Shown: positions 30,384 through 59,158 of the stretch, one piece after another
Layout: every line of letters starts with the position of its first letter
How positions within the stretch are numbered: position 1 is the first letter of the stretch
From: a virus
Taxonomy: Duplodnaviria > Caudoviricetes
Length of the DNA stretch: 64,000 nucleotides
Strand: one strand, 5' to 3'
IMG/VR virus record: IMGVR_UViG_3300043773_000356
Coordinates: 1,067-65,066 of that record
Notes under the pieces: generated by a model
Told to the model about the DNA's origin: nothing
The model's input: the letters and a program-made list of their open reading frames with translations, nothing else
Database searches by the model: none
Translations under genes and position numbers: made by a program

Positions 30384-30520
30384 TTTGGGCAGGATGGGCA
30401 GGTTTTTTGAAAACTTTTGCGGTAGGGGTGGCAAGTTGAAAACGATATTTCTGAAAACTTGTTATACCGTATAACAAACACCCCGACTTTCTTTATTTCT
30501 ATTTTTACTTGGAGAATCTC

Positions 30521-31630: not shown

Positions 31631-31832
31631 CCGGACCTAACCCTCATCACATGTAAGAGCAGAACTACTAGCATGGCAGATGTGAGCGTATTTTTGCGTG
31701 GCACCCTTGATGAGGGGCGTAGGGTAGGGTGCCGCACTCCTGACATGAGGTGGGCATGTAATCTGCCTTTCCCACCACACAACCCTGGCATTGAAAAGTT
31801 ATACCGTATAACAAATTACTTGGAGAAATAAG

Positions 31833-35665: not shown

Positions 35666-35711
35666 CAGGGTGTTGAGCAGTGATAACGATATATAAATTT
35701 ACTTGGAGAAA

Positions 35712-38707: not shown

Positions 38708-38976
38708 GCAGAAAAGCTATGCAGGTGGCGCTTGAGGCGTTGGAGAGTGATCCAATAAGTCATGCTGGGCTTGTGACCGTATTATCGTCCGGTAAAGGTA
38801 CGGGTTGCGGGTACACAAACATTAATGAAAACTGGACACATCTTTACAACGCACCACAAAAGCGTGAATGGGTTGGGCTGACGGATGAGGACATGGAAGC
38901 ACTTTTCTTGAATGAGGACGGTGTGAGGTTTGCCCGATACATCGAAGCCAAGCTGCGGGAGAAGAATCATGGATAG
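38704..38976 (+). CDS. Hypothetical protein, family A copy 1
   Basis: MSRKAMQVALEALE...PQKREWVGLTDE...EKNHG. Confidence 0.7.
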   Translation: MSRKAMQVALEALESDPISHAGLVTVLSSGKGTGCGYTNINENWTHLYNAPQKREWVGLTDEDMEALFLNEDGVRFARYIEAKLREKNHG

Positions 38977-39196
38977 AGAAGACATCATCCGCATGGCGCG
39001 AGAGGCTGGGCTTGGTGACACCGGTGTGCGAGGAGCCTTCATTTTCTTTCAACCTGGAACAAATGGGCTTGAACGCTTCGCTACCCTTGTCGCCGCTGCC
39101 GAGCGTGAGGCGTGTGCTTCCATTTGTTTTCAAGAGGGGCCGTCAATAGACGGGGAGCTGATCGCGGAAGCCATACGAGCAAGGGGAAACACATGA
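38969..39196 (+). CDS. Hypothetical protein, family B copy 1
   Basis: MDREDIIRMAREAG...AAEREACA...AIRARG. Confidence 0.7.
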   Translation: MDREDIIRMAREAGLGDTGVRGAFIFFQPGTNGLERFATLVAAAEREACASICFQEGPSIDGELIAEAIRARGNT

Positions 39197-39573: not shown

Positions 39574-39811
39574 GCAGATTAGAGTACGGATTATGTCCGA
39601 AGCCTACGACCTTGCGGACCGAGGCGATCACGAGGGGTACAACGCCATCAAGGTGATGTGCGGTGATGTGTTGGAATCAATAGCTGCTGTCGTCGCTGCT
39701 GAGCGTGAAGAGTGTGCGAAGGTGTGTGATGTGCTTGCTGTACATCCTGAATATGCGTCAGACATTACAAAGGTGGCCGCGCAAGCAATCCGAGCAAGGG
39801 GAGACAGATGA
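39563..39811 (+). CDS. Hypothetical protein, family B copy 2
   Basis: AAEREECA...AIRARG. Confidence 0.7.
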   Translation: MDIEQIRVRIMSEAYDLADRGDHEGYNAIKVMCGDVLESIAAVVAAEREECAKVCDVLAVHPEYASDITKVAAQAIRARGDR

Positions 39812-43828: not shown

Positions 43829-43915
43829 AGTAGTAAGCAGTAACAAGTTCTAGCTGTACATAACAAAGAGCATTGTGGACACCCACTTTGCTCGATAGTT
43901 TATTTGGAGAAACGA

Positions 43916-45472
43916 ATGCAGATCATCGAGAACAAAGCTTTACTGCTGAGCTTAAGCAAGCCGCAGCGGGTGTTGCAGGTCATACCAAAATCTAAGCTGT
44001 TAGATGATAACCGTGTCCTAGTGCGGTGGGGGTACGAGGAAGCCAAGGTACTGAAGAACCTGCGCATCCGAAACGTGCCATCACCCATTCTGCGGGACTA
44101 CGGCTGGCCCGGACGCTACCGACCCTTCGCACACCAGAAGACCACGGCATCATTCCTCACCCTCAATCAGAAGGCTTTCTGCTTTAACGAGCAGGGTACA
44201 GGCAAAACAGGCTCGGTCATCTGGGCAGCAGACTACTTGATGAAGCTTGGTGTGATTAGCCGAGTACTTGTTATCTGCCCACTATCCATTATGGATTCGG
44301 CGTGGCGAGGTGACTTGTTTAAGTTTGCTATGCACCGCAGCGTTGACATCGCTTACGGGTCATCGGATAAGCGCAGAAAAATTATTCAGAGTGATTCCGG
44401 ATTTATCATCATCAATTACGACGGCGTGGAGATCGTGGCCGACGCGATTGCACAGGGTGGCTTTGACCTGATTGTGGTGGACGAGGCTAACGCTTACAAG
44501 AATGCACAGACCAAACGGTGGAAGGTGCTCAACAAACTTGTTACCGCGAAGACGTGGCTTTGGATGCTGACAGGCACACCCGCAGCACAGTCTCCTACCG
44601 ATGCTTATGGGATCGCCAAGCTAGTCAACCCGGAGGGTGTACCTAAGTTTTTCACGAGCTTTAAAGATCGTGTGATGTACAAAGTTACCCAATTTAAATG
44701 GGTACCCAAACCTACGGCAACTGACATTGTTTTTAACGCGTTACAACCTGCAATACGTTATACGAAAGAGGAATGCCTAGATCTACCCGACATGATTTAT
44801 ACCGAGCGGGATGTAGAGCTTACCCCACAGCAGCGCAAGTATTACGACCTTATGCGTAAACAGTTCGTTGTTCAGGCGGCAGGGGAAGAGGTTACCGCAG
44901 TCAATGCAGCTATCAGCATCAACAAGCTGCTACAGATCTCATGTGGTGCGGTGTACTCAGACAGCGGGGAAGTCATTTCATTCGACATCAAGAACCGTTA
45001 CAAAGTTCTAACCGAGACCATTGACCAGACTAACAATAAGATTCTAGTGTTCGTACCCTTCAAACACACCATACGAATTTTAAAAGATGCACTGATAAAC
45101 GACGGACACAGTGTTGAAGTGATTGACGGTGACGTGCCCGCGCAGAAACGAGCCGATATTTTTCGTAAGTTTCAGACTGAGGATACACCCCGTATCCTGT
45201 TGATCCAACCGCAAGCCGCAGCGCATGGTGTAACGTTGACAGCCGCTGATACGATTGTGTGGTGGGGGCCGACCCCATCGTTGGAGATCTATGCACAGGC
45301 TAATGCACGAGCACACCGTGCAGGGCAGAAGCATCCGGTAACCGTTGTCAGGTTGCAGGGGAGCCGTGCAGAGAAACATCTGTATGACATGTTAGATAAA
45401 AGAATTGACAGTCACGAACAATTAGTTGATCTTTACAAAAATCTACTTGACATAGATAAAAAAGCGCAGTAA
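43916..45472 (+). CDS. SNF2-family helicase
   Basis: EQGTGKT, ICPLS, VVDEA, LTGTP, HGVTLTAA and QANARAHRAGQ. ATG at 43916. Confidence 0.92.
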   Translation: MQIIENKALLLSLSKPQRVLQVIPKSKLLDDNRVLVRWGYEEAKVLKNLRIRNVPSPILRDYGWPGRYRPFAHQKTTASFLTLNQKAFCFNEQGTGKTGSVIWAADYLMKLGVISRVLVICPLSIMDSAWRGDLFKFAMHRSVDIAYGSSDKRRKIIQSDSGFIIINYDGVEIVADAIAQGGFDLIVVDEANAYKNAQTKRWKVLNKLVTAKTWLWMLTGTPAAQSPTDAYGIAKLVNPEGVPKFFTSFKDRVMYKVTQFKWVPKPTATDIVFNALQPAIRYTKEECLDLPDMIYTERDVELTPQQRKYYDLMRKQFVVQAAGEEVTAVNAAISINKLLQISCGAVYSDSGEVISFDIKNRYKVLTETIDQTNNKILVFVPFKHTIRILKDALINDGHSVEVIDGDVPAQKRADIFRKFQTEDTPRILLIQPQAAAHGVTLTAADTIVWWGPTPSLEIYAQANARAHRAGQKHPVTVVRLQGSRAEKHLYDMLDKRIDSHEQLVDLYKNLLDIDKKAQ

Positions 45473-45475: not shown

Positions 45476-45509
45476 ACGCGCATAACTAGATTCTGTACTA
45501 CTTGGAGAA

Positions 45510-45920
45510 ATGAAAATGAGTAATGATGAGACTACTGTCCCCATCGATAAGCTAGTTCGCACCTACCGGCGTATCTACGAGAAGCGTCAAGAGCTTCGTA
45601 CCACATTTGAGGAAGAGGAAGGCAAGCTGAATTCCAAACTTGGCATGGTTAAATCGGCGCTGCTTCAGCACCTCAAAACAATTGGCGCAGACAGTGTGCG
45701 TACCCCCGAGGGTTTGATCTACCGCACATTGAAATCCACGTACTGGACAAACGATTGGGAGTCCATGAACGAGTTTATCCTTGAGCACCAAGCGCCGTGG
45801 CTGCTCGAAAAGCGCATCCACCAAGGGAACCTAAAAAAATTCTTGGAGGAAAACCCCGAAGTTCTGCCCCCCGGCTTGAACGTTGATAGTGAATACTCAG
45901 TCACCGTGAGGAAAAAATGA
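45510..45920 (+). CDS. Conserved phage protein
   Basis: Coiled coil, then SVRTPEG...DWES...LLEKRI...LPPGL. The start may be 45516. Confidence 0.7.
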   Translation: MKMSNDETTVPIDKLVRTYRRIYEKRQELRTTFEEEEGKLNSKLGMVKSALLQHLKTIGADSVRTPEGLIYRTLKSTYWTNDWESMNEFILEHQAPWLLEKRIHQGNLKKFLEENPEVLPPGLNVDSEYSVTVRKK

Positions 45921-46156: not shown

Positions 46157-46170
46157 CCTTGGAGAAACAG

Positions 46171-47025
46171 ATGAGTGAAGTAGCATTGTTCAAAGGCGGT
46201 TTGCCTTCTTATTTAAAGAACGTTCAAGACGATACAACAAAAGCCCTTGCCGGGAGCGATGGGGGTGGTGCAAAGCGCATCTCCATCAAAGGCAGCGTGT
46301 TCCGTATGATGTCAGGTGGTAAAGAGGTTGCGGTTAACGAAGACCGCGCCATGAATATCATCATCATTAAAGCTGCGCCGAACGTCGCACGTACCTACTA
46401 TGGTGGCGTGTACGTTGAAGGTGAGATCACCGCACCTAAATGCTGGTCATCGAATGGCTTGAAACCTGATGCAGATGCCAACGAGCGCCAATCTGAGAGC
46501 TGTGCAAATTGCCCGCAGAATGCTAAAGGTTCTGGGCAGGGCGAAAGCCGTGCTTGCCGTTACTCGCAAAACTTGGCGGTTCTGTTGGAGAACGATACGC
46601 AGGGTGACATCTTCAGGCTTACGCTTCCTGCCACATCAATCTTTGGTGAAGGCGAAACCAACAAGATGCCATTGCAGCGTTACGCAAAACATCTTCAGGC
46701 GCACGGCGTCCCCGTCAGTGGTGTTGTTACTGAAATGCGTTTTGATACGGCAAGCCCCACGCCCAAGCTGATCTTCAAACCTGTGCGCCACGTATCAGAG
46801 CAAGAGTTCGACGTTATTAATGAGCGCAAAGACTCACCGGAAGCTGAAGCCGCTATCAAGCTTTCGTTGGGCAAAGCAGATACAGCGAAGAAACCCGCGC
46901 TGATTGCTGCACCTGTAGTAGCTGCTCCCGCAGTTGAACCCGAGGAGCCAAAGAAAGTAACTAAGAAACCTGCTGAAAATGCAACGGACTTGGCAGCTTT
47001 GGTAAACGAGTTTGACGACGAGTAA
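46171..47025 (+). CDS. Putative ssDNA-binding/annealing protein
   Basis: RISIKG..FR, PKCWS, CANCPQN..GS...ACR and an acidic C-terminus EFDDE; lies next to the primase. Confidence 0.6.
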   Translation: MSEVALFKGGLPSYLKNVQDDTTKALAGSDGGGAKRISIKGSVFRMMSGGKEVAVNEDRAMNIIIIKAAPNVARTYYGGVYVEGEITAPKCWSSNGLKPDADANERQSESCANCPQNAKGSGQGESRACRYSQNLAVLLENDTQGDIFRLTLPATSIFGEGETNKMPLQRYAKHLQAHGVPVSGVVTEMRFDTASPTPKLIFKPVRHVSEQEFDVINERKDSPEAEAAIKLSLGKADTAKKPALIAAPVVAAPAVEPEEPKKVTKKPAENATDLAALVNEFDDE

Positions 47026-47120: not shown

Positions 47121-49976
47121 ATGGACACAAAAACATTCTTGGAAACAGTCCTTGCACGGAGGGGTTTCTTTTGCAGCTTCTCAGCAAAAGGGATAAAGGC
47201 AAGGGATGGTAAAAAACAAACTTTCTTGGATACTGTTGATGAGCTTATAACTTATACAGCCAAACTCAGTGATGATGGATGGGATACTTACTTTGCATTA
47301 GGCCGGTTCCCCGACAAAGGCTCGCGTGAAGCAGATGCCCACCCTTGGATGCGTAGTCTGTTTATGGATGTTGACTGCGGACCCACTAAGCCATACCCTG
47401 ACCAACAGCAAGGTGCAGTAGCCCTAAGAAAATTTATAACAGATGCAGGTCTGCCTAAACCTATCCTAGTGAGTTCGGGCCGGGGCATCCATGCGTATTG
47501 GCCTTTTGCTGAGGAAGTTGAGCGGGATACTTGGCAACCTGTAGCCAATAAACTTCTTAGTCTAACCAGACTTCACGGGTTTAGCGTTGACCCATCGATC
47601 ACTGCCAATGCAGCGTCGGTGTTACGAGTTCCCGGCACCAACCATTACAAAGATGACCCACCGAAAACGGTAAAGATTTTTTATATTCCTGATTACGTCA
47701 CTGCCGGTAACCTGCCTCAGTTTGATGAGTTACGAGAGATGATCGGGGAAGAGCAGGTGCGCCCAAAGATGACGCGCACTGCGGTGATGGACCCTGTTAC
47801 TCAAGCCTTGATCGGTAACTACAGAAACAGCTTCAAAATAATTTTACAGAAGTCGGCACAAGGTAAAGGTTGTGCTCAGCTTGCTCACATCATTGAACAT
47901 CAAGAGACAATGAGTGAACCCAAATGGCGAGCCGCGTTATCAATTGCAGTACATACCATAGAAGCTGAGAAAGCAATTCATATGGTGTCACGTCGGCACC
48001 CTGAATATGACCCTATAGAAACTGAAGACAAGGCATACCGTATCAAGGGACCGTTTTTGTGTGAGACCTTCGAGAAAGAGAACCCCGGATTCTGCGAAGG
48101 GTGCATACACAAAGGTAAGATCAAGTCCCCCATCAGCATCGGGCGTATTGTGCAAGAAGCTACTGCCGAAGATAACGTTATCACTGTCCCGCCATCCACT
48201 GCATCGGTCTCGGTGTTGCCAACTACGTATCACATACCCCCATACCCTAAGCCTTACTTTAGGGGGAGAAGCGGTGGGGTGTTTAAGCGAGTAATAAAAG
48301 ATGGGGAGACACTTGAAGTCCCTGTCTATCATAACGATATATATGTCATACGCAGATTGCATGACAAGGATTCAGGAGACACATTGATTGTGCGTCTGCA
48401 TTTACCCCAAGATGGGGTTCGTGATTTTGCAATACCTACATCAAACGTTACTTCACGCGAGGAGCTACGCAAGACACTCGCGGCACGGGGCGTGTTGGTG
48501 CCAAAGATTAATGACCTTATGGATTACTTTATCAAGTGGTCCGATACGTTACAACTTTCAGAAAAGGCAGATAACGTGCGAAAACAATTTGGTTGGGTTG
48601 ATGACAAGCGCATGGATGCGTTTGTGGTTGGTACAAAAGTTATTTACGGTGATCGTGTGGAGTACAACCCACCGTCAACCAAGACAAACAAGATCATTGA
48701 CGAGTTTAGAGAAGAAGGTACGCTTGATGGTTGGATTGAAACCATGAAGTTTTACGAACAACCCAAGATGCAAATGCACCAATTCGTAATCGGTCTTGGC
48801 TTTGGTGGGTTTCTCTTCCCCTTCGTTAAACCTCTGTACGGTGCGGTGTTTCACATTTATAGCGAAGAGTCGGGGCTAGGTAAGACGACTAGTGCAATCG
48901 GCATGGCAAGTATCTGGGGCAACCCGGAAGAAATTGTGCTCAAAGAAAACGACACAATGGCAAGCCGTTACCTACGCATGGAAGTGCACAAAAACATCCC
49001 CATCGTGTTTGATGAAATTACAGACGCAAAACCGGAAGAGCTAGGGGCAATGGCTTACTCGGTCCCGATGGGTAAGCAGCGTAACCGCATGGGACCACAA
49101 GGTAATGTTGAGCGGGAGCGTGGTGATACATGGGGGTTGCCTGTCATTACAACAGGTAACGTCAGTTGGCATGAGCGGTTGAGTATTGCGAAGGCACGAC
49201 CCTCGGCAGAAGCACTGCGTGTGCTTGAAGTGCAAGCTGAAAGAGTTTTTGCAGAGAATGATGAAGCTAGCAAAGAGCTGACGGATAAACTGTCTCGCGA
49301 TCAGGTGAAAAACTTTGGTGTGGTTGCTGTACCGCTTGTGCAATACGCCATCAATAATATGGCTGCGCTACGTGAGTTGTTTACCCAAATTCAATTGCAG
49401 TTAGATAAGAGCGCGAAGCTTGCACAACCAGAGCGGTACTACTCAGTCTTGGGTGCCTTTGGAATCTTAGGTCTCATCATAGGACGAAAGTTGGGGTTCA
49501 TTAATTACAACGTAGAAGAAGTTTTTGAGTGGATCGTTGATAAAGTAAAAAATGCCAAGGGTTCTGTGCTGCGATATAAGACTGACCCTGAAGCTGTTAT
49601 CAATGACTACCTTGCTGCCAACTGGAACAACATCCTGCGTATCAAGAGCACTGAAGATGCGCGTAACCTTCCTGACTCTTTAGAGCATCTAGTCATACCA
49701 GACAGCACCCCCCGCATTTCGTTAATTGCACGGTATGAGTACGACAAGAAAGAGCTGTTCTTGATGATCGAGCCGTTTAAAGATTGGTGCGTCAAACGGC
49801 AAATAAACTTTGAAAACCTAATTAACAACTTGCGCCGAGGCAAGTCGAAGGCACAGTACGTATCAAAGCGCATGGGTAAAGGCACTCGCATGAACCTGCC
49901 ATCGATCAGGGTACTATACTTAGACGCGTCGGGGTGGATACATGAAGAAACCGAAACCCCTACAGCCGTATCATAG
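47121..49976 (+). CDS. Primase-helicase (AEP/RepB-like primase, DUF927-like and P-loop helicase)
   Basis: FMDVDCG, SSGRGIHAYW, LRVPGT, a Cys cluster, FGW, Walker A SGLGKTT and VFDE. Confidence 0.85.
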   Translation: MDTKTFLETVLARRGFFCSFSAKGIKARDGKKQTFLDTVDELITYTAKLSDDGWDTYFALGRFPDKGSREADAHPWMRSLFMDVDCGPTKPYPDQQQGAVALRKFITDAGLPKPILVSSGRGIHAYWPFAEEVERDTWQPVANKLLSLTRLHGFSVDPSITANAASVLRVPGTNHYKDDPPKTVKIFYIPDYVTAGNLPQFDELREMIGEEQVRPKMTRTAVMDPVTQALIGNYRNSFKIILQKSAQGKGCAQLAHIIEHQETMSEPKWRAALSIAVHTIEAEKAIHMVSRRHPEYDPIETEDKAYRIKGPFLCETFEKENPGFCEGCIHKGKIKSPISIGRIVQEATAEDNVITVPPSTASVSVLPTTYHIPPYPKPYFRGRSGGVFKRVIKDGETLEVPVYHNDIYVIRRLHDKDSGDTLIVRLHLPQDGVRDFAIPTSNVTSREELRKTLAARGVLVPKINDLMDYFIKWSDTLQLSEKADNVRKQFGWVDDKRMDAFVVGTKVIYGDRVEYNPPSTKTNKIIDEFREEGTLDGWIETMKFYEQPKMQMHQFVIGLGFGGFLFPFVKPLYGAVFHIYSEESGLGKTTSAIGMASIWGNPEEIVLKENDTMASRYLRMEVHKNIPIVFDEITDAKPEELGAMAYSVPMGKQRNRMGPQGNVERERGDTWGLPVITTGNVSWHERLSIAKARPSAEALRVLEVQAERVFAENDEASKELTDKLSRDQVKNFGVVAVPLVQYAINNMAALRELFTQIQLQLDKSAKLAQPERYYSVLGAFGILGLIIGRKLGFINYNVEEVFEWIVDKVKNAKGSVLRYKTDPEAVINDYLAANWNNILRIKSTEDARNLPDSLEHLVIPDSTPRISLIARYEYDKKELFLMIEPFKDWCVKRQINFENLINNLRRGKSKAQYVSKRMGKGTRMNLPSIRVLYLDASGWIHEETETPTAVS

Positions 49977-50196
49977 GACAGCCTATTACCTGAACACAAT
50001 TGATCCAGACGGGTTAATTATCTTTCTGGATCTGGACAACTTTGAAGTCGGCATGTCGATGTTCATTCCGGCACTGAACTTAGCCGAGGCAAAAAGACAG
50101 GTAAAGATGTTGGCGAAAGACAAGGATTGGAAGGTAGTCTTTGCCGACCGGATTGAGGGGAGTAGATTGGGGATACGCTTTTGGAGATTGCTGTGA
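49942..50196 (+). CDS. Hypothetical protein
   Basis: FEVGMSMFIP...GIRFWR; last gene of the + strand arm. Confidence 0.6.
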   Translation: MKKPKPLQPYHRTAYYLNTIDPDGLIIFLDLDNFEVGMSMFIPALNLAEAKRQVKMLAKDKDWKVVFADRIEGSRLGIRFWRLL

Positions 50197-50208
50197 TACT
50201 ATCCGCTG

Positions 50209-50271
50209 CGAGATGTCTCCTATCTCATTCTTCTCCAAGAATTTACCCCCGGCTGGTCCGGGGGATTTTTT
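50209..50271 (+). ncRNA. Candidate small RNA with two CUCC-loop hairpins and a terminator
   Basis: Extended -10 TG-A-TACTAT (50194-50202); GAGAT-gtctcct-ATCTC; ATTCTT-ctcc-AAGAAT; then the terminator. Confidence 0.5.
50246..50271 (+). terminator. Intrinsic terminator between convergent arms
   Basis: CCCCCGG-CTGGT-CCGGGGG-ATTTTTT. Confidence 0.85.
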
Positions 50272-53200
50272 CAGTCCTCTAGCTCCGCAGCATCTTTACG
50301 AAGCTCATCCTCAAGGGCACGACTGAACAGCACTCCGTGATACATACGCTCCGTTGACTTGGCGTGTTGCGCCAGCGAGCGTTGGATAGTTTTGTCCAAA
50401 CCATCCGGGAAAAGTCCCTTATGCTTATCACCTAATTTCTTTAGCTCTTCCTTGGCTTCTTGCATACCGTCGGCATCACCGACACGCGAAGCCACATAGT
50501 ATTTCCGCAGGTTGTTTGTTTTCTCTTCATTGACCCGACGGTCAATACCTTTCTCTCGTGCGTTTATTTCTAGTTGCTTGGTGAGATCGGCTGGTGCAAA
50601 CCCGAAGAATTGTCCGAGGACATTCCCTGCACTGACATCATCAACGATAGGATCACCCCGCACAGTTTTGGCAGTGCCTTCACTGAGGAATCGGGTGGCT
50701 TTCATCATATTGCCGAGCGACGTGGGTAGCATAGCTTCCACACCACGATACATCTCGCCCTCTTTCATCAGGTTGTAGCCACGCTCTAACTTACTTACGG
50801 AACCTACGACCGGACCGCCTAACATCTCAGCAGCGCGAACAAGTAACGTCTTATCCTGTTCGTTGAGTACATCCCGCACAATTAAATCATTGAAGCCCAT
50901 CCGTGCAGCGACATCGACGTTGAAGATATAGTTAAACGCACCTTTGTATGCAAGCTCGCCCATGTACTTGCGGGTCTGAATCTCAAGCGTGTCTTCCTTG
51001 TCGTCATCATCTGCAAGGGTAGCGGCATACACCATCGCAGCAAGACCAAAGAACGGTAGTCCCTGTACACCAGCAAAAAGTGCTGCCATACCATACAGAC
51101 CAGCGATCTGCATCTTTGCCTGATCTCGTACGTTCTTGTCTTGATGTCTTAATAATTCGTTCGCAGTTTTGAACAGCATGTAGTACATCGACACGCCGTA
51201 ACGCTTAAACATAAACACGACACGACCGATATTGCCTTGCGCGATACGAGGGGCAGCACCTGCGGAAGTACCACCGTTGGTAAGCTTGGTGGTATAGATT
51301 GCATAATTAGCAGCCTCTTCTTCTGCGGCTTTACCTGTACGTCCTTCTTTCTTTAGACGTGCAAGCTCCAACTCGTAGGCGGCTATCATCGAAACCTGAC
51401 GGTTCATCCGTTCGCCGTGGTGAAACATCGCACCTGTTACGGCGTTGACTTTGCCTGATACCGACGTGCCTTCGTTGGCCTCCAACGTATCGTAAAGCTG
51501 TGAACTGTTAAGCATCCCACGATCAGACGCCATCTCTGCAAGTGTCTTCAAATGCTTAAATTCTGCGGGGGTGTTGGGGTCATCAAAATTCAGGTTGCCC
51601 AAGTTAGGCATAGCCTTCATTTTGTACTTGGCTTTAACAGGTTTACCGTTCTCGTCAATGTAATCAACTTCACGCTCGGTGTTAAAACCTGTTTTAGCGT
51701 AAGTAGTGTAGGCACGCTGGATAGCTTGCCGTGCCTGATCGTATCCATATTTACCACCAAGAATAGGCAGTACAACCAACGGCACCTGGGATAAGTTAAT
51801 GATGGCTGACGAGAGGTTTAACCCCAAGGTCATGTTAAAGCCGAAACTTGTAAGCAGCCTAGACCAATCCGAAACTTGCGGGTCGGTAATCACTTTGACA
51901 CGCTTGCCAAGTTCTTCAAGGTACTCCTGCGCTAGTGCAGTCTTCTCAGGATCTTCTGCTTTCCCACGCTCGGACTTAACCGACTCAGCCATCTTCGCCA
52001 AAAGATCTTGCATCTTGGCACCGTAGCGCATGTTGGCAATCTGACGAGCAAGACTAAACGACTTCGTGCGTAACGCACCAATCGCATCTTCATCAAACCC
52101 AAGCCGATCTTCACGCGCTTGGAACGACTGAGCAAACGCAGTCTCAGGCAGTGAGTTTAAGAACAACCGCACGATTTCTTCTTCAGCATCCTTATAACGT
52201 TTGAGACTTTCGGCATCGCCTTTCGTGGGGCGGTTGATCTCAAGCGTTTTGATCACACCGTTAATAAACGATGTGCTTGGTGCACGGGAGAAAACTTTAA
52301 ACTGATCCAGATTTGAGAACTCCTCAAATTCCTTGAACCCTTTCTTACCTAACGCTTCTATAGCTTTGTTGCGCTCAAAGCGATTCTCATAGGCAGACAC
52401 ATAGTGCTCGCCTTTGGCATCAGCGTATGACAACCAGTAAGCACCTTTACGAGTGAGTGGGAAGTAAGGATCGATGCCACCCCGTGCTGTGATCTTCGCC
52501 CAGATGTCTTTCTTAATAGAGTCGGCACGAGCTTTATCGGGGATCAGCGTGTTGATGCGGTCCTCAATACTGTCGAGCAATTCTTTATACAACCGACCGT
52601 AGGTATCCCGCATCTGCATGTAAAGCTGCTTACCTTCAGGGTCAAGTTTGTTAAACGCTTTATTGAGTGTGTCCCAAGCTTTGAGGGCTTCTGCATCACC
52701 TTTATAAGTGTCCCTCGCTTTAGTCGGATCGACTCGTGCGAGTGTGCTGCCGTAGATGACTTTGTTAAACAGCTTGGTCATCACCTCACCGTTTTTCTTA
52801 GACCACTTCTCGGCTGCGGCAATCAGAGGCTCAGTGTTTTTGAGCATCTTAAATTCATAACCACTGCGCTGATCTAATAACAAGTCAAGCTTCTTCACAC
52901 CGGGAAGGTACTTCTCGGCAACCTCAACAAACGCTTCAAGCGGAAGCGAAGACAGGATGGTGGAGCGAGCAAACTTAGGCAGAGTGCCTGATAAAAACTC
53001 ATTAACGGCGATAGCGATTTTAGACAGCGTAGTGTTTGGCCCCCTAGCTACAGCCTTCTCGGTCAAGCTGTCCAGATACTTTATAAAGAAGTTGGGGTTC
53101 GTAGTAGCTTGCATCATCAACCGCGCACCGTCCCGACTTGCAGGAGCAGGGGAGATGATCTGCGAAATCAGCTCATCGGCAACATCCATCGCAGACTTAA

Positions 53201-56200
53201 CTTCAAACGGTCGGGCTTCCATGCCCATCAAGCGGCGAACAAAGTTTGTAATAGTATTTACAAACCGACTCCACGCAGACACGGGTCTGCCATCTTTGAC
53301 GTTAATACGAATAGCGGCAAGTTGTGCTTGGAAGTCCGGGTTGGAGAAAGCTTCGGCAACAAACTCATCCAATGACTGCGTACCGTAAGCATCACCAAGC
53401 TGATCCTTTACTGCGTCAAACAATGACTGAAGTTGTTTGGTAACAGGGTGTGACTTGTTAGCCAGTATGTGTGATGTGGCAGCGTGAACTGCTTCGTGCA
53501 GGGCAACGTGGTTGTTAAGCCCGATCTCGCTATCCAAATAAATCGTATCAGTTTTAGGATCGTAATAACCAGCAGCGGGCCGTCCGTTTTCTTTCAACCC
53601 ATCAACAACTTTTACCTTAGTCTTCAGGTTACCAGCAAGCAGTGCGTTGGCAATCTTGCCAATCATCTCACCCTGTACAGCCATAAGGCGTAGCGCAGTC
53701 GGCAGATCACCGGAACGAAGCGCACCTTCCATCGCAGGGTGCAGTGGCTTGGTGAGTGGGGAGACTGCATCAGAGTTAAGGAAGTAATTGGCGCTGTCAG
53801 AATCAGTGGGAGTAGCAACAAACCCACCCGAAACACCTAATGGCTTAAGCCCACTAACTTTAACTTTAGAAAGACTTTCAATACGATTCTTAGCCCGTTC
53901 CATTTGAGCCAATACATCGTCAATCTCGGCATTAGTTACGTCAGCTTTACCCTTAGCTTTTGATTGTGCAACACGCTCTGCATCCAACGCATCTGATAAT
54001 AACTTTACAAACTTATCGGAAGTAGCCGCAGCGCGTCTTGTCGAAAGCATTTGGTCGGCAAGCTTACGTCTAACTGTATCGCTTAAATTATTTCTAACCC
54101 ACTGCACAGCCAACTTAGCGTTCTCCGCGTTCATGCCTTTGAGGAACTCACTTTCAATCGGGTGCGTGTCTTCTACAGATCTAGCTCGTGGGGTGTTATT
54201 GGCAATATCCCACGCCATCATGTACAAACCATCAACAAGCCGTTTCATCTTGTTGAAGTAGATTCGCGCAGCCGTGCCTGTTTCGGTTGTGGCATTCCGG
54301 CGTATTAACCTAACTCGCTCCTGATCATTTTCAGTGCCAACTTCTTTAGGCTCATACGCTAAGAAACCATCTTCAATGGTTTTAAGAAATACACCAAGCT
54401 CTTTCTCTGCTTCAGTGCGTTTCTGCCCACGCTCAGTTTTTACCTTGCTGAGTTGACCTTGTAGGGTGCGATCTTCGGTGGGTTCTCCAGTGGCTGGCTC
54501 TGCCACTTTTTTTCTTTCAGTAGTCTTTGCTGCTCCCTCTTCTTTTGCTTGCTGGGTTTCGGTGGGCGTAACGGCACTGGGGGTTTCCTTTTTGGGTTTG
54601 GTTTTTTCCTCGGGTTGTTTCTCTTCAGTTTTTTCTGGTGCTTTTTGTTCTTCCTTCACTGCACCCTGTGCTGGCTTCTCTCCTCGTACAGGTTGGTCAG
54701 TAGCTGGCTCAGCGCGTTCCACTCTAGCGTCGACAGATGGCTCAGCTCTTCCGGTGGGTACTCCTCTGTCGGGTCGGCCAGAAACTGGAACGCTCTCTCC
54801 ACTTGTTGTAACGGTAGGTTCAGTAACATCTTGTGCCCCTTTCGTTGTTACTTTTGCTGCTTTTGAGGGTTTGCCAGTGGGAGTAAACATCTCCATCTGG
54901 CGTTTATCTTTTGTAGTAACAGGTTCTTCAGTTACAGTTTCTGACGGCTGTGCCTGCGAGCCTGGGGGCACCATTTCTAAATCAGGAATTGTTAACTGCC
55001 CCGTACGATCCCTAGCACGGCTTGGCTCAACAGCAAGCTCAACATCTCGTCTACCTTCAGGTTCTTTAGGTATACCCTCAAGCTCAACGTCACGCTTCTC
55101 GCCTTCTGCGGCTCTGCGCTTAAGCTCCTGTTTATAGGATCGCAAGAAAAACTGCTCAGCAGGAGTGACAGATTCACCTGCTTGCATACGGGCTTCAATA
55201 TCATCAGCACGTTGCTTGGCAAGTTGCGTAGTGAAGAACTCTTGCTGGAGGGGTGTAAGTTCACCTTCGGTGATCGGTGCCTGTTCACGCTGTCCGGTCC
55301 GTTCGGCTCGCTTCGGCTCCACAGGGGGTGTGCCCATCTCAATAGGCAGGTACAACGATTGTTGATCTGTGAGCGGCAAGCTCGACAACATAGCGTCTGC
55401 GGCTTTGGCTTTATCTTGTGCAGCTTGTGAACGACTTGGGTTTTCCGCACGTTCCCGCAAGAAAGCCCGAAACTCAGACATGGTGTCGGGGTCGGCAAGA
55501 TCTCTACCTACAAACTGCTTATACGGTGCCGAGCCTCTACCCACACCAGCTTCGGCTAAGAATGATTGGGTAATTGGGATCGAAGTAATTTCTGGGATGG
55601 GAGTTGCCTCTGTCCGACCTCCGGGGGTTTCCGGGAAAAGCTCACGTTGACCTAACCGCTGCGGTGCATACTTTTCTTGGAACTGTCGCTCTTCATCTGC
55701 GGCTGCGGTTTGTTTTTTGCTTAGTTCATAAAGCGCAACATCCCGTGGGGTAAACAGCACCGTACCATCTTCTGTAATGATAGGGCTAAACTGTTTGAAT
55801 TCGGGTTTAGGAAGTTGTAGTGGTGCTGCGGGTGTGGGCGGTTCTTCTTGTTCAACACGACCTTCAAATCTAGGAACGGGCAACGCCTCACCTAGTGCAC
55901 GGGGTTCTTCTTTACGCCTACCGTACTTTTCTTCAAGTTCTTGCTCTTCTAATCGTTTCCGATAATCGTCAACTTCCTGTTGGGTAAATGCAAGTGTGCC
56001 GTCAGGGAAAACAACGGGTTGGAATTCACCTTGTGCGTACGACTTCTTTACACTAGCGTCATACCCCAACATCAAAATCTGTTCACGCTCTTCAGGGGTC
56101 TTAGCTGCCTCAAGACGACGTGCAATCTCTGCATCAATCTGTGCCTGATCAGCGCGTTTACCCCGAGCGGCTTCAACTGCTGCACCGGGAGCGCCAAACA

Positions 56201-57224
56201 CACCACCTGCAATGCCACCTTTCAGGCCCGACGTGATCATCCGATCAACGTTCTCAGGATCAAAGAATTCTTTCTTACTACCCGCAATCTGCTCGGCTAA
56301 GATCGATATGCTTTCTTGTGCGGATTCAGTCAGACCTTCCTTAGCTGCAAGGCTAGGAATAGAAACAGCAAGACGGGATGCCATACTCTTAGCAGCGGGG
56401 AGCGTTGACTGTTCTAACATTTCCTTAGTCAGTAACGCCTTACCTGTTGACCCAAGCTGCTTGGCAATCTGTTCTGGCAAAAACGAATCCAGCGCAGCAA
56501 ACGGCACACCCAAGGTAAGTGCAAGAACCGGTTCAAGCTTGCCTGTCTCTTCTTCAACACTCTGGAAGATCTCACCCGATGCCAACCCATACGCCCCGCC
56601 GCGCACACCTGTTTTAAATCCTGTCTCAGCACCCTCACGAGCTGCCGTAGGTGCGAGGCGACGTGTGGCAGTTTCTGCTAACGCTCTAACATCTTGCGGA
56701 CCAGCAGCCATCGCAGCTTCACGAGAAGCCAAACGCTTGGCAATTTGTTCCCCCGCTTCAGCCGCACCACGCTGTGCGATACGCCTACCGACTACCGACC
56801 CAACACCACCGGGAACAAGCAAAGAAGCAAGATCAACAGCACCTTCACCCAGTGTTTCAGCAACAAATCCTGGAACATCGCCTACCCCACGAATATCTTT
56901 ATAGGATCGAAACGCTGTGGGGGATTCACGCTCAGCCGCTTCCCGCTTGGCTTTGGCTTCAGCCATCTGCTCACGGGCGTAGTCTTCAAACCCAAACGCA
57001 CTACCGAAAAGCGCAGGTGCAACATCGGTAACAAGACTGCCCAACCCAGAAAGCGTTCGCTTAGCACCCCCGGTAATTTTTTGAGTAGTGCTTAAGTCAC
57101 GAGGGTCAAATTCAATCTGAGGTGCTTGAGCTTCAGCATACTCAACCCTACGCCTAATTTCCGCTTCCGGCATGTTGTCGGGAAAGCGGATCGGACCATA
57201 ACCACGAACTTGTACGACAGGCAT
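50271..57224 (-). CDS. Giant internal virion/ejection (polyvalent) protein, 2317 aa
   Basis: Zincin motif AGYYDP...ALHEAVH...DEFVAEAF, PLxRFG-like YFPLTRKG, and a long charged linker. Confidence 0.8.
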   Translation of the reverse strand: MPVVQVRGYGPIRFPDNMPEAEIRRRVEYAEAQAPQIEFDPRDLSTTQKITGGAKRTLSGLGSLVTDVAPALFGSAFGFEDYAREQMAEAKAKREAAERESPTAFRSYKDIRGVGDVPGFVAETLGEGAVDLASLLVPGGVGSVVGRRIAQRGAAEAGEQIAKRLASREAAMAAGPQDVRALAETATRRLAPTAAREGAETGFKTGVRGGAYGLASGEIFQSVEEETGKLEPVLALTLGVPFAALDSFLPEQIAKQLGSTGKALLTKEMLEQSTLPAAKSMASRLAVSIPSLAAKEGLTESAQESISILAEQIAGSKKEFFDPENVDRMITSGLKGGIAGGVFGAPGAAVEAARGKRADQAQIDAEIARRLEAAKTPEEREQILMLGYDASVKKSYAQGEFQPVVFPDGTLAFTQQEVDDYRKRLEEQELEEKYGRRKEEPRALGEALPVPRFEGRVEQEEPPTPAAPLQLPKPEFKQFSPIITEDGTVLFTPRDVALYELSKKQTAAADEERQFQEKYAPQRLGQRELFPETPGGRTEATPIPEITSIPITQSFLAEAGVGRGSAPYKQFVGRDLADPDTMSEFRAFLRERAENPSRSQAAQDKAKAADAMLSSLPLTDQQSLYLPIEMGTPPVEPKRAERTGQREQAPITEGELTPLQQEFFTTQLAKQRADDIEARMQAGESVTPAEQFFLRSYKQELKRRAAEGEKRDVELEGIPKEPEGRRDVELAVEPSRARDRTGQLTIPDLEMVPPGSQAQPSETVTEEPVTTKDKRQMEMFTPTGKPSKAAKVTTKGAQDVTEPTVTTSGESVPVSGRPDRGVPTGRAEPSVDARVERAEPATDQPVRGEKPAQGAVKEEQKAPEKTEEKQPEEKTKPKKETPSAVTPTETQQAKEEGAAKTTERKKVAEPATGEPTEDRTLQGQLSKVKTERGQKRTEAEKELGVFLKTIEDGFLAYEPKEVGTENDQERVRLIRRNATTETGTAARIYFNKMKRLVDGLYMMAWDIANNTPRARSVEDTHPIESEFLKGMNAENAKLAVQWVRNNLSDTVRRKLADQMLSTRRAAATSDKFVKLLSDALDAERVAQSKAKGKADVTNAEIDDVLAQMERAKNRIESLSKVKVSGLKPLGVSGGFVATPTDSDSANYFLNSDAVSPLTKPLHPAMEGALRSGDLPTALRLMAVQGEMIGKIANALLAGNLKTKVKVVDGLKENGRPAAGYYDPKTDTIYLDSEIGLNNHVALHEAVHAATSHILANKSHPVTKQLQSLFDAVKDQLGDAYGTQSLDEFVAEAFSNPDFQAQLAAIRINVKDGRPVSAWSRFVNTITNFVRRLMGMEARPFEVKSAMDVADELISQIISPAPASRDGARLMMQATTNPNFFIKYLDSLTEKAVARGPNTTLSKIAIAVNEFLSGTLPKFARSTILSSLPLEAFVEVAEKYLPGVKKLDLLLDQRSGYEFKMLKNTEPLIAAAEKWSKKNGEVMTKLFNKVIYGSTLARVDPTKARDTYKGDAEALKAWDTLNKAFNKLDPEGKQLYMQMRDTYGRLYKELLDSIEDRINTLIPDKARADSIKKDIWAKITARGGIDPYFPLTRKGAYWLSYADAKGEHYVSAYENRFERNKAIEALGKKGFKEFEEFSNLDQFKVFSRAPSTSFINGVIKTLEINRPTKGDAESLKRYKDAEEEIVRLFLNSLPETAFAQSFQAREDRLGFDEDAIGALRTKSFSLARQIANMRYGAKMQDLLAKMAESVKSERGKAEDPEKTALAQEYLEELGKRVKVITDPQVSDWSRLLTSFGFNMTLGLNLSSAIINLSQVPLVVLPILGGKYGYDQARQAIQRAYTTYAKTGFNTEREVDYIDENGKPVKAKYKMKAMPNLGNLNFDDPNTPAEFKHLKTLAEMASDRGMLNSSQLYDTLEANEGTSVSGKVNAVTGAMFHHGERMNRQVSMIAAYELELARLKKEGRTGKAAEEEAANYAIYTTKLTNGGTSAGAAPRIAQGNIGRVVFMFKRYGVSMYYMLFKTANELLRHQDKNVRDQAKMQIAGLYGMAALFAGVQGLPFFGLAAMVYAATLADDDDKEDTLEIQTRKYMGELAYKGAFNYIFNVDVAARMGFNDLIVRDVLNEQDKTLLVRAAEMLGGPVVGSVSKLERGYNLMKEGEMYRGVEAMLPTSLGNMMKATRFLSEGTAKTVRGDPIVDDVSAGNVLGQFFGFAPADLTKQLEINAREKGIDRRVNEEKTNNLRKYYVASRVGDADGMQEAKEELKKLGDKHKGLFPDGLDKTIQRSLAQHAKSTERMYHGVLFSRALEDELRKDAAELED

Positions 57225-57233
57225 TTCGTACCT

Positions 57234-59144: not shown

Positions 59145-59158
59145 TTTTTACCCCCTAG

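What the first reader, a model, noticed from the sequence alone, without database searches (positions are those of the whole stretch)
50194..50271. Candidate anti-Shine-Dalgarno sRNA complementary to the shared RBS of early/replication genes
Seen: the 74-nt gap between the convergent arms holds an extended -10 (TG-A-TACTAT), two adjacent hairpins exposing CUCC, and a terminator. TTCTCCAAG (50231-39) is the exact reverse complement of CTTGGAGAA, the RBS at 30508 (AAA), 31819 (peptidase-vWA), 35702 (tas), 45501 and 46158 (SSB). It matches 8/9 at 29379, 33105 and 43903. Hairpin-1 TCTCCTA complements TAGGAGA at 34384 and 40528. Inference: a ~63-nt RNA, or the operon's 3' end, could shut off early translation, including Tas, as an early-to-late switch. 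Alternative: on the minus strand the same hairpins display GGA loops like CsrA/RsmA-sponging RNAs.
Basis: partly seen in the sequence, partly recalled or inferred. Interest (0 to 1): 0.72.

Follow-up and report, generated by a model that had tools for sequence, protein, structure and literature searches.

The report
Conserved phage anti-ribosome-site small RNA
The short gap where this lake phage's two gene arms meet holds a small RNA gene, kept by dozens of distant relatives, whose exposed pyrimidine stretch mirrors the ribosome-binding sites of the phage's own early and replication genes and probably damps their translation, though the RNA has not been seen.

Summary

**What is there.** Window 50194-50271 holds, on the + strand:
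- an extended -10 that uses the stop codon of the upstream gene;
- two small hairpins showing UCUCC and CUCC;
- a strong intrinsic terminator.

**Conservation.**
- The same layout sits at the same syntenic place in most relatives. These share only 30-50% protein identity in the flanking genes.
- A covariance model finds it in 55 of 79 sources, and stems co-vary.

**Strand.** U-tract, -10 and G·U pairs all point to the + strand. This argues against the CsrA-sponge alternative.

**Targets in the window.** 13 of 41 early-arm start regions carry 8 or more bases complementary to the seed (50224-50240), against 1 of 53 late-arm ones.

**Co-variation across relatives.**
- Each phage's RNA fits its own upstream genes better than other phages' RNAs do.
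- The fit is strongest at three orthologous replication-module genes.

**Limits.**
- No transcript was seen; the public RNA runs are contigs only.
- The early/late contrast was replicated in only 1 of 4 other whole genomes.
- The 'early-to-late switch' is inference.

**Closest known.** Rfam RF02278, the CU-rich double-hairpin sRNAs of Burkholderiales, matched below threshold only.

**Earlier scan notes.** The scan has noted similar phage anti-SD RNAs on other DNA before (unchecked AI notes). I did not test whether they are the same family.

The parts
50194..50202 (+). Extended -10 promoter element (TGnTAnnnT). The TG comes from the TGA stop codon of the 84-aa gene.
   Evidence: 41 of 64 relatives have TGnTAnnnT at this exact place, and 8 more have TAnnnT after a non-TGA stop. 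Background is 0.09% and 1.6% per position. The 84-aa gene ends in TGA in 53 of 66 loci, against 45 of 200 other long + strand frames.
50209..50271 (+). Predicted small RNA, about 61-63 nt. The start is inferred at 7 nt after the -10 hexamer. The end is in the T-run.
   Evidence: Fold (-21.9 kcal/mol, z -2.18). Covariance models R1 and R2 place the window's copy at 50197-50271 (26.2 and 43.1 bits). The 5' end is inferred, not mapped.
50210..50226 (+). Hairpin 1, directly at the predicted 5' end. It has a 6-bp stem and the loop UCUCC.
   Evidence: A hairpin at this place in relatives has 53 distinct stem starts among 62 sequences. 58 of 62 fold better than their shuffles (median z -2.35). Both-sided changes are counted.
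50224..50240 (+). Seed region: the loop of hairpin 2 (CUCC, 50233-50236) plus its weak A-U arms. All matches of 8 or more nt to start regions fall here.
50227..50242 (+). Hairpin 2: a 6-bp A-U-rich stem with loop CUCC. It contains TTCTCCAAG (50231-50239).
   Evidence: The strain variant A50241G keeps the pair as a G·U wobble on the + strand.
50246..50271 (+). Intrinsic terminator: 7 G-C pairs, a 5-nt loop, then A + T6. The last T is also the first base of the complement of the 2317-aa gene's stop codon. It also ends the replication operon.
   Evidence: Terminator pairs are 98% paired, with both-sided changes in 5 of 7 pairs. G·U 15 against A·C 1.
49942..50196 (+). Upstream 84-aa gene, the last gene of the + arm. 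Its last codons and stop overlap the promoter.
   Evidence: tblastn hits in relatives, 33-51% identity.
46158..46166 (+). Predicted target: ribosome site of the 284-aa gene (46171-47025), 9-nt exact complement. This is the orthologous target with the strongest own-versus-foreign signal.
   Evidence: own 7.82 against 6.41 nt, n 34, p 1e-5.
45501..45509 (+). Predicted target: ribosome site of the 134-aa gene (45516-45920).
   Evidence: own 8.02 against 6.26, n 55, p 0.00017.
43904..43911 (+). Predicted target: ribosome site of the SNF2-type helicase gene (43916-45472), 8-nt complement.
   Evidence: own 7.0 against 5.67, n 38, p 0.0016.
35702..35710 (+).
   Evidence: The gene's identity was not tested here.
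31819..31827 (+). Predicted target: ribosome site of the 411-aa gene (31833-33068).
30508..30516 (+). Predicted target: ribosome site of the 369-aa gene (30521-31630).
38958..38967 (+). Predicted target: 10-nt complement (GGAGAAGAAT) at the ribosome site of the 75-aa gene (38969-39196). The same 10-mer lies at 39552-39561 before 39563-39811.

Best explanation
The gap holds a gene for a small regulatory RNA of about 62 nt, on the + strand.

**How it is made (inferred)**
- Host RNA polymerase starts at an extended -10 that overlaps the stop codon of the last replication-arm gene.
- The RNA begins with a protective 5' hairpin.
- It shows a pyrimidine-rich stretch: the UCUCC loop, then CAUUCUUCUCCAAGA around a weak hairpin.
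- It ends at the strong terminator that also ends the replication operon.
- The same sequence is therefore also the 3' end of the operon mRNA.

**What it does (inferred)**
- The exposed stretch pairs with the GGAGAA-type ribosome-binding sites of the phage's own early, middle and replication genes.
- This keeps 30S subunits off those sites and lowers their translation as the RNA builds up.
- The late structural genes use AAGGAA-type or TAAGGT-type sites and escape.

**Shown by sequence comparison:** the unit, its strand, its conservation, its structure, and the fact that its complementarity follows each phage's own sites.

**Inferred:** transcription, repression and timing.
For: **1. Conserved unit**
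- 68 of the 82 loci then held keep the order primase, 84-aa gene, gap, then the convergent giant gene.
- Nearly all gaps read: -10, hairpin, CU motif (often GTTCTCC), terminator.

**2. Promoter**
- 41 of 64 loci have TGnTAnnnT at the stop codon, and 8 more have TAnnnT. Background is 0.09% and 1.6% per position.
- TGA ends the 84-aa gene in 53 of 66 loci, against 45 of 200 other long frames.

**3. Structure**
- Model R1 was built from one clade. It found 33 matches at E 0.9 or less in 798 kb, all at the syntenic place.
- Model R2 found the syntenic copy in 55 of 79 sources and in 8 of 17 more distant contigs binned into MAGs.
- On A6, 94.8% of cells pair, against 75.0% in shuffles and 41-59% when slid. 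72 cells changed on both sides, against 16.9 ± 3.4. 0 of 500 shuffles reach either value.
- On A7, 92.4% against 67.9%, and 155 against 42.8.

**4. Strand**
- The T-run is on the + strand only.
- G·U 39 against A·C 10 in paired columns.
- There is no conserved minus-strand ORF: 8 of 63 loci have an SD-preceded ORF of 30 or more codons.

**5. Targets in the window**
- 13 of 41 + arm start regions have 8 or more nt of exact complement, against 1 of 53 on the - arms (Fisher p 5.6e-5).
- Shuffled RNAs give a mean of 1.38, and 0 of 500 reach 13.
- Duplex energy is -14.8 against -10.1 kcal/mol, p 8e-7.

**6. Co-variation**
- Own against foreign RNA 8-mer complements: ratio 1.68, with 40 of 51 clusters above 0.5, p 2e-5. 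The same-sense control gives 0.0139 on the diagonal against 0.0131 over all pairs.
- With GC-matched controls and the 84-aa gene excluded: ratio 1.58, p 1.4e-4.
- Extension anchored on GGAG: 2.44 against 1.66 nt, 36 of 47 clusters, p 1.9e-5.
- The signal is specific to orthologous start regions. It is seen at the SNF2, 134-aa and 284-aa genes, not at the primase, 84-aa or 79-aa genes.
Against: - **No transcript, 5' end or 3' end was seen.** The four RNA-labelled runs are assembled contigs, and three are probably DNA.
- **The early/late contrast is strong only here.** Of four other whole genomes, one shows it weakly (p 0.015) and three do not (p 0.29, 0.29, 0.69). Gene calls there were crude.
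- **One clade does not fit.** The RNA of the L045/L054 clade lacks the TTCTCC core. It shows no match to that phage's commonest early site.
- **Some loci lack the promoter or the unit.** 15 of 64 loci lack a -10 at the expected place. Two loci, L049 and L066, have no room for the RNA.
- **Any CU-rich stretch fits Shine-Dalgarno sites to some degree.** The own-versus-foreign gain is only about 0.8-1.8 nt.
- **Clusters are not fully independent**, so the p-values are optimistic.
- **The pair counts lean on the model.** The alignments used for them were fitted to the model.
- **The seed lies partly inside a (weak) hairpin.**
Confidence: 0.55

Rival explanations
1. There is no independent RNA. The conserved element is only the structured 3' untranslated end of the replication operon mRNA. 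Its CU stretch acts in cis. It either folds back on ribosome sites of the same polycistronic mRNA (SNF2, 134-aa and 284-aa genes), or it merely stabilises the 3' end.
For: - No terminator lies between the 84-aa gene and the element, so operon transcripts must carry it.
- The three orthologous genes with the clearest own-specific complementarity lie directly upstream on the same strand.
- 15 of 64 loci lack a recognisable -10 at the expected place.
Against: - The -10 at a fixed distance from the first hairpin, and the skew of the stop codon towards TGA, are hard to explain without a promoter.
- In the window, many matching sites lie 10-20 kb upstream, probably in other transcription units.
- The two modes do not exclude each other.
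Confidence: 0.2
2. The RNA is aimed at the host. It copies the design of the host's own CU-rich growth-damping small RNAs (the RF02278 type) and shuts down host mRNAs as part of takeover. The fit to phage sites is a by-product.
For: - Sub-threshold matches to RF02278: 30.3 bits in the window and up to 40.7 bits in relatives, in 22 of 50.
- RF02278 members are reported as CU-rich, complementary to ribosome sites, growth-attenuating when overexpressed and toxic in E. coli (PMC5688073 and PMC4603805, passages read).
- The phage lives in lakes.
Against: - The host is unknown. Relatives are binned into MAGs of many phyla.
- No match reaches the family cut-off.
- The phage model hits only 2 of 7 true RF02278 copies, weakly and without the first hairpin.
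- A host-only target does not explain why each RNA fits its own phage's sites better than foreign ones.
Confidence: 0.15
3. The functional strand is the minus strand. The tail of the late operon carries GGA-bearing loops, acting as a CsrA/RsmA sponge, or a decoy ribosome site.
For: - On the minus strand the gap reads as the phage's typical ribosome site. In the window it is followed by ATG, one codon and a stop. In L024 it is a 16-nt copy of a real start region.
- The late operon has no other terminator here.
Against: - The T-run follows the stem only on the + strand.
- The -10 is on the + strand.
- G·U 39 against A·C 10.
- There is no conserved ORF.
- There are only two GGA motifs.
Confidence: 0.05
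4. It is a plain terminator region, and its match to the ribosome-site motif is chance.
For: A single 9-mer match in a 74-nt gap could arise by chance, given a CU-rich spacer.
Against: - Conservation of the -10, hairpin and CU motif across relatives with 30-50% protein identity in the flanks.
- Model hits almost only at the syntenic place.
- Co-variation with each phage's own sites.
Confidence: 0.05

Closest known systems
Rfam RF02278, Betaproteobacteria 'toxic small RNA' / 'double-hairpin RNAs' of Burkholderia (ncS03, ncS05, ncS27, ncS62)
   Same: [quoted passage not shown]
- Predicted interactions centre on start regions. Overexpression of ncS27 attenuates growth (PMC5688073, passages read).
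- Toxic when cloned in E. coli (PMC4603805, passage read, citing Kimelman 2012, which I could not read).
- The window matches the whole model, and its first 8 aligned bases are identical to the consensus.
   Different: - Scores are below the cut-off of 50 bits: 30.3 here, 40.7 at most in 50 relatives.
- The first hairpin does not align.
- The phage model finds 2 of 7 true copies, weakly.
- This one is encoded by a phage, single-copy, at a fixed syntenic site sharing the terminator of an operon.
- Its complementarity follows the phage's own genes.
CU/C-rich-loop sRNAs that block Shine-Dalgarno sites (Listeria LhrC, M. tuberculosis 6C, staphylococcal IsrR/RsaE, Neisseria NmsR)
   Same: - Several exposed pyrimidine motifs in loops or linkers.
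- Many mRNA targets, hit at the ribosome site.
- Sources: search listing and abstracts; NmsR as described in PMC5688073.
   Different: - Those are chromosomal bacterial regulators of host regulons.
- There is no sequence relation: RsaE scored 14.8 bits against a cut-off of 79.
c4 antisense RNA of phages P1 and P7
   Same: A phage-encoded small RNA whose loop sequences pair around a ribosome-binding site of a phage mRNA and block translation (review PMC12197685, passage read).
   Different: - c4 controls one operon (the antirepressor) in temperate phages and underlies immunity.
- Here a whole class of early and replication genes is predicted.
- No Rfam C4 match was listed at E 10 or less.
T4 RegA (translational repressor protein of early mRNAs)
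   Same: By analogy only: a phage product that lowers translation of many of its own early mRNAs at their start regions. I saw review PMC3014915 in a search listing only; the function is recalled.
   Different: RegA is a protein. Here the proposed agent is an RNA that reads the sites by base pairing.
Lambda PreS (LPR1) and other phage trans-acting sRNAs
   Same: A phage-encoded base-pairing sRNA acting during the lytic cycle (bioRxiv 10.1101/2024.10.31.621285, abstract and outline read).
   Different: That RNA acts on host genes and enhances dnaN translation. It has no anti-SD design and is not reported to target the phage's own gene class.

Membership tests
Rfam RF02278 (Betaproteobacteria toxic sRNA) | Score at or above the curated gathering threshold (50 bits) | tested here: not met
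   - Window: 30.3 bits.
- 22 of 50 relatives match at E 1 or less, best 40.7 and 39.6 bits, none over the cut-off.
- A search of the window's own genome with another tool returned no match at all. I could not resolve this discrepancy.
Rfam RF02278 (Betaproteobacteria toxic sRNA) | Short RNA with CU-rich unpaired stretches complementary to ribosome sites, plus a terminator hairpin | tested here: met
   Fold, complementarity, family description in PMC5688073. This is a likeness of design, not proof of common descent.
Rfam RF02278 (Betaproteobacteria toxic sRNA) | Reciprocal recognition: a model of the phage RNAs should find true family members | tested here: not met
   - Three Burkholderiales genomes hold 7 copies over the cut-off.
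- Model R2 hits 2 of them (23.7 and 17.5 bits), with the first hairpin unaligned.
- The 35-bit hit in L146 is a phage contig binned into that MAG.
Rfam RF02278 (Betaproteobacteria toxic sRNA) | Chromosomal, multi-copy, in Betaproteobacteria | tested here: not met
   - Phage-encoded, with one copy per genome at a fixed place.
- The host is unknown; relatives are binned into MAGs of many phyla.
Stand-alone trans-acting base-pairing sRNA gene | Own promoter | tested here: met
   At sequence level only: a conserved extended -10 at a fixed distance from the 5' hairpin, and a stop-codon skew to TGA. Promoter activity was not tested.
Stand-alone trans-acting base-pairing sRNA gene | Intrinsic terminator on the same strand | tested here: met
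Stand-alone trans-acting base-pairing sRNA gene | A discrete transcript is observed | tested here: inconclusive
   The RNA-labelled runs are kept as contigs, which cannot show ends, strand or level. Three of the four are probably DNA.
Stand-alone trans-acting base-pairing sRNA gene | Seed-target pairing kept in evolution | tested here: met
   Own-versus-foreign tests. The effect is modest, and the clusters are not fully independent.
CsrA/RsmA-sponging RNAs (CsrB/RsmY type) | GGA motifs displayed in loops of the transcribed strand | tested here: not met
   - GGA lies on the minus strand.
- The -10, the T-run and the G·U excess (39 against 10) indicate the + strand.
- No Csr/Rsm family is among the Rfam matches at E 10 or less.
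P1/P7 c4 antisense RNA (Rfam C4) | Match to the family model | tested here: not met
   Not among the 14 matches at E 10 or less.

The most novel reading that the evidence does not exclude
A large family of uncultured aquatic phages times its own gene expression with one small RNA, an RNA counterpart of the T4 RegA protein.

- The RNA is made from a promoter fused to the stop codon of the last replication gene, and also forms the tail of that operon.
- It would read the special GGAGAA-type ribosome sites that mark early and replication genes and switch them down as a class.
- Late genes carry a different site type and escape.
- RNA and sites co-evolve in each lineage.
- The design may have been borrowed from, or may converge on, the growth-damping CU-rich RNAs of Burkholderiales.
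Probability: 0.35. Interest if true: 0.85.

Novelty: new variant of a known kind. Interest (0 to 1): 0.7.

Why it matters
- **Few such cases are known.** The review passages and listings I saw name few phage-encoded trans-acting RNAs. Those named act on host genes or on a single phage operon.
- **A new layer of timing.** A small RNA that reads a class-specific ribosome site would add a post-transcriptional layer to the timing of phage development. It would be done by RNA rather than by a protein such as RegA.
- **A possible explanation for two site dialects.** It would explain why the early and late genes of this phage use different ribosome-site types.
- **Directly testable.**
  - The RNA is short, and the predicted sites are 8-16 nt.
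  - Natural variation supplies ready-made compensatory pairs: for example, the window's CTTGGAGAA type against L024's 15-nt type that includes the start codon.
- **Uncatalogued.** The family is not in Rfam.
- **Possibly widespread.** At least 594 stretches in the IMG/VR viral contigs encode a relative of the neighbouring primase. I looked for the RNA in only 80 of them.

Tried and rejected
**Searches and tests that led nowhere**
- **DNA search of GenBank phages.** A search with 49000-51500 found nothing.
- **Protein search.** It found only distant cultured relatives, the best being Pseudomonas phage Rollin at 29%. The Rollin stretch fetched around that match (L097, 9.5 kb) has no R2 match. No cultured model is in hand.
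- **Rfam at gathering thresholds and tRNA scan.** Nothing in the window.
- **Expression.**
  - The one run search gave 20 holders, mostly lake DNA.
  - The four RNA-labelled runs laid are contigs of roughly 90-99% strains, and three are probably DNA.
  - A contig of the one true metatranscriptome spans 50166-50480, but this shows neither strand, nor ends, nor level. There is no verdict on transcription.
- **MAFFT alignments A2 and A3.** These mixed-clade alignments anchored on the -10 and on GTTCTCC but did not align the hairpins. I did not use them for structure. I used one clade (A4) and model-based alignments instead.
- **Early against late in other whole genomes.** G001 p 0.015; G002 0.29; G003 0.29; G004 0.69. 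Full-body duplex energies and crude gene calls make this a weak test, but it does not support a general early/late rule.
- **Minus-strand ORF from the gap.** Rejected.
- **Host.** A scan of bacterial genomes found relatives only as contigs binned into MAGs of Alpha-, Beta-, Actino-, Verruco- and other groups. There is no consistent host.
- **RF02278 membership.** Rejected on score and on the reciprocal test.
  - A second RF02278/R2 hit in G001 (44147-44229) is a gene-end terminator. Its stem-loop looks, by eye, nearly the same as that of this phage's small RNA terminator.
  - This shows that hits of about 26 bits can rest on a terminator alone.
- **Second window hit.** The R1 hit at window 27637-27705 (E 0.92) is a gene-end hairpin plus terminator without a CU motif. 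It drops out with R2.
- **ncS35.** My recollection that it belongs to RF02278 was wrong. The paper reports no Rfam hit.
- **Earlier scan notes.** Look-ups by place and by sequence found nothing. Look-ups by words found similar notes on other genomes. I reached RF02278, before reading them.
- **Supplementary files.** They were not opened. Tables of phage ncRNAs (for example in PMC10914365 and PMC12197685) could list something similar that I could not see.

**Rows dropped before counts**
- L001-L003, which are the window's own stretch (L002) and a near-identical (98-99%) relative contig (L001, L003), and L014, which is identical to L012 in the gap, were dropped where stated.
- L055 was dropped from the fold-based sets, because its T-run rule failed.
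- Gaps outside 40-130 nt (L037, L049, L066) were left out of the fold and k-mer sets.
Full report
**Setting.** The window is 64,000 of the 65,066 bases of a virus record with direct terminal repeats. Runs that hold it are mostly lake and freshwater metagenomes.
- Genes run on the minus strand at 1-26,300 and 50,271-64,000.
- Genes run on the plus strand at 26,700-50,196.
- The plus arm ends with an SNF2-type helicase, a 134-aa protein, a 284-aa protein, a 951-aa DUF927 primase-helicase and an 84-aa protein.
- The minus arm that meets it starts, at its 3' end, with a 2317-aa protein.
- No close cultured relative exists in the GenBank phage set.

- The gap is 50197-50270, 74 nt.
- TGATACTAT (50194-50202) is an extended -10 whose TG belongs to the TGA stop codon.
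- The RNA 50209-50271 folds into three elements at -21.9 kcal/mol, z -2.18:
  - hairpin 1, 50210-50226, loop UCUCC;
  - hairpin 2, 50227-50242, loop CUCC;
  - a terminator with 7 G-C pairs (50246-50264) followed by T6.
- CTTGGAGAA occurs five times on the + strand, each 2-7 nt before an ATG, and once as its reverse complement at 50231-50239. Shuffles give 0.47 expected, and 0 of 100 reach 6.
- The TAGGAGA match of hairpin 1 is not above chance.

**The element is conserved far beyond what neutral DNA allows.**
- A profile of the primase found 594 stretches encoding relatives in IMG/VR. The best 80 were fetched.
- 68 of the 82 loci then held keep the order primase, 84-aa gene, gap, then convergent giant gene. 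Flanking protein identity is 26-53%.
- Nearly every gap shows the same order of parts: TAnnnT straight after the stop codon, a hairpin, a pyrimidine motif (most often GTTCTCC), and a G-C-rich hairpin with a T-run on the + strand.
- Exceptions:
  - L049 has a 19-nt gap.
  - L066 has overlapping genes.
  - L037 has the element, then an extra 0.9 kb.

**Promoter.**
- Of 64 loci, 41 have TGnTAnnnT built on the stop codon.
- 8 have TAnnnT after a TAA or TAG stop, mostly the better hexamer TATACT.
- 15 have neither at that exact place.
- The per-position background in the same loci is 0.09% for TGnTAnnnT and 1.6% for TAnnnT.
- The 84-aa gene ends in TGA in 53 of 66 loci. Other long + strand frames upstream end in TGA in 45 of 200.
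- A stop codon chosen to supply the TG of an extended -10 is the simplest reading.
- The first hairpin starts about 7 nt after the hexamer, where transcription would begin. That start is inferred, not mapped.

**Structure.**
- Without any alignment, the 5' part folds better than its dinucleotide shuffles in 58 of 62 sequences (median z -2.35). The stems begin with 53 different 5-mers.
- Model R1 was built from one clade with a hand-set structure. It found 33 matches at E 0.9 or less in 798 kb, all at the syntenic gap, including the window at 50197-50271.
- Model R2, rebuilt from those matches, gave 62 matches:
  - the syntenic copy in 55 of 79 primary sources;
  - 3 duplicates from whole-genome pieces;
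  - 4 rows elsewhere.
- R2 also found the syntenic copy in 8 of 17 more distant contigs binned into bacterial MAGs.
- Pair counts on A6:
  - 94.8% of cells paired, against 75.0% in shuffles and 41-59% when slid;
  - 72 cells changed on both sides, against 16.9;
  - covariation score 0.477 against 0.165.
- Pair counts on A7: 92.4% against 67.9%, 155 against 42.8, and 0.543 against 0.163.
- These alignments were fitted to the model, so the figures lean towards it.

**Strand.**
- The T-run follows the terminator only on the + strand.
- In paired columns, G·U or U·G occurs 39 times and A·C or C·A 10 times.
- The strain variant A50241G turns an A-U pair into G·U.
- On the minus strand the gap looks like a ribosome site, but no ORF is kept. 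An SD-preceded ORF of 30 or more codons exists in 8 of 63 loci.
- This removes the CsrA-sponge reading as a serious rival.

**Targets in the window.**
- With crude gene calls, 13 of 41 + arm start regions hold 8 or more nt exactly complementary to the RNA body. On the minus arms it is 1 of 53 (Fisher p 5.6e-5).
- 500 shuffled RNAs give a mean of 1.38 and never reach 13.
- All such matches fall in 50224-50240.
- The sites are of two overlapping kinds, CTTGGAGAA and GGAGAAGAAT, which together mirror 13 nt of the RNA.
- Late genes mostly use AAGGAA-like or TAAGGT-like sites.
- Duplex energies differ by 4.7 kcal/mol, p 8e-7.

**Co-variation with the phage's own sites.** For 62 RNAs in 51 clusters:

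| Test | Own | Foreign | Clusters above 0.5 | p |
|---|---|---|---|---|
| 8-mer complements, ratio own/foreign | ratio 1.68 | | 40 of 51 | 2e-5 |
| 9-mer complements, ratio own/foreign | ratio 2.58 | | 34 of 51 | 1.4e-4 |
| 8-mers, GC-matched, 84-aa gene excluded | ratio 1.58 | | 33 of 42 | 1.4e-4 |
| 9-mers, GC-matched, 84-aa gene excluded | ratio 2.31 | | 26 of 42 | 6.5e-4 |
| Pairing extension beyond GGAG (nt) | 2.44 | 1.66 | 36 of 47 | 1.9e-5 |

- The same-sense control shows no excess.
- By orthologous gene (longest exact complement in nt):
  - SNF2 helicase, 7.0 against 5.67, p 0.0016;
  - 134-aa gene, 8.02 against 6.26, p 0.00017;
  - 284-aa gene, 7.82 against 6.41, p 1e-5.
- There is no significant effect at the primase (p 0.059), the 79-aa gene (p 0.079) or the 84-aa gene (p 0.24).
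- In L024 the RNA matches 15-16 nt of two start regions, including the ATG.
- The gain is small, and the clusters are not fully independent. The signal is nonetheless consistent across four differently built tests.

**What does not fit.**
- The early/late contrast is clear only here. In four other whole genomes it is weak once and absent three times.
- The clade of L045 and L054 has a different pyrimidine motif and no match to its commonest early site.
- No RNA evidence could be had.

**Mechanism.**
- Shown by comparison: a conserved + strand unit with promoter-like and terminator elements, a co-varying 5' hairpin, an exposed CU stretch, and complementarity that tracks the phage's own ribosome sites.
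- Inferred: it is transcribed both on its own and as the tail of the replication operon, it pairs with those sites, and it lowers their translation.
- Timing, meaning shut-off of early genes as the RNA accumulates, is a further inference.
- A cis action of the operon's 3' tail on its own upstream cistrons is a real alternative, and it may coexist with the trans action.

**Comparison with known families.**
- The only notable Rfam match is RF02278, whole model, 30.3 bits against a cut-off of 50.
- 22 of 50 relatives match below the cut-off, best 40.7 bits. The three places I checked lie at the small-RNA locus.
- Papers describe that family as short Burkholderia RNAs with unpaired CU stretches complementary to ribosome sites. 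They are growth-attenuating and toxic in E. coli.
- True members in three Burkholderiales genomes score 50-69 bits. The phage model finds only two of the seven, weakly.
- I therefore file this RNA as working like that family, and like LhrC, 6C and c4, but not as a member.
- My four full-text searches listed no phage RNA of this kind. Supplements were closed, so lists of phage ncRNAs there were not seen.

**Earlier scan notes.**
- Notes on other genomes describe similar conserved phage anti-ribosome-site RNAs, with the same closest family.
- They are unchecked AI notes on other DNA.
- Look-ups by place and sequence found no look-alike of this window. Whether they are one RNA family is open.

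**Verdict.**
- This is a real, conserved, uncatalogued small-RNA unit (about 0.85).
- It probably acts through anti-Shine-Dalgarno pairing on the phage's own early and replication genes (about 0.55).
- The switch model is plausible but unproven.

Noticed in passing
window 26700-50196 (+ arm) versus 1-26300 and 50271-64000 (- arms): The two gene classes use different ribosome-site types. The + arm uses mostly (CTT)GGAGAA(GAAT). The minus arms use mostly AAGGAA, AAAGGA or TAAGGT (6-mer tallies, start regions listed).
   Followed up: partly
window 30461-30475, 31798-31812, 33077-33091 and neighbours: A palindrome, GTTATACCGTATAAC, lies 20-45 nt before several CTTGGAGAA sites. Some early leaders therefore share both an operator-like site and the ribosome-site motif (seen in the contexts).
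   Followed up: no
window 45837-45848: The longest complement to the RNA outside start regions is a 12-nt stretch, AAATTCTTGGAG. It lies inside the 3' part of the 134-aa gene, about 70 nt before the next gene.
   Followed up: no
window 27637-27755: Two terminator-like hairpins with T-runs stand in tandem, at about 27683-27710 and 27726-27755, after the 75-aa early gene. The first is preceded by a small hairpin that gave a weak R1 match (E 0.92). There is no CU motif.
   Followed up: partly
window 50241 and 50245: Strain variants A>G and A>T occur in a near-identical viral contig and in contigs of four runs. The first keeps hairpin 2 paired as G·U, and the seed TTCTCCAAG is unchanged.
   Followed up: partly
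L024:6465-6544 with L024:1412 and 1658: In this relative the RNA is complementary to 15-16 nt of two start regions, Shine-Dalgarno site through start codon. This is the longest natural RNA-site match seen.
   Followed up: partly
L085:4147-4229 (G001 44147-44229, minus strand): A gene-end terminator elsewhere in a relative's genome has a stem-loop that looks, by eye, nearly the same as that of this phage's small RNA terminator. For that reason it scores 26-28 bits with RF02278 and R2.
   Followed up: partly
L098-L121 (bacterial genome assemblies): Contigs of this phage family are binned into MAGs labelled Parvibaculum, Rhodobacteraceae, Nanopelagicales, Polaromonas, Verrucomicrobiales, Caulobacteraceae and others. 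These are probably binning artefacts. In the Polaromonas MAG, the sub-threshold RF02278 hit on contig 60 is the phage RNA.
   Followed up: partly
window, whole genome: Tool discrepancy. cmscan gives RF02278 at 30.3 bits at 50214-50272. The whole-genome family search of the same record reports no match at E 10 or less.
   Followed up: no
L005:401-421 and 3408-3428: In one relative, the ribosome-site motif GGAGAATG stands twice in tandem, 13 nt apart, before two genes.
   Followed up: no
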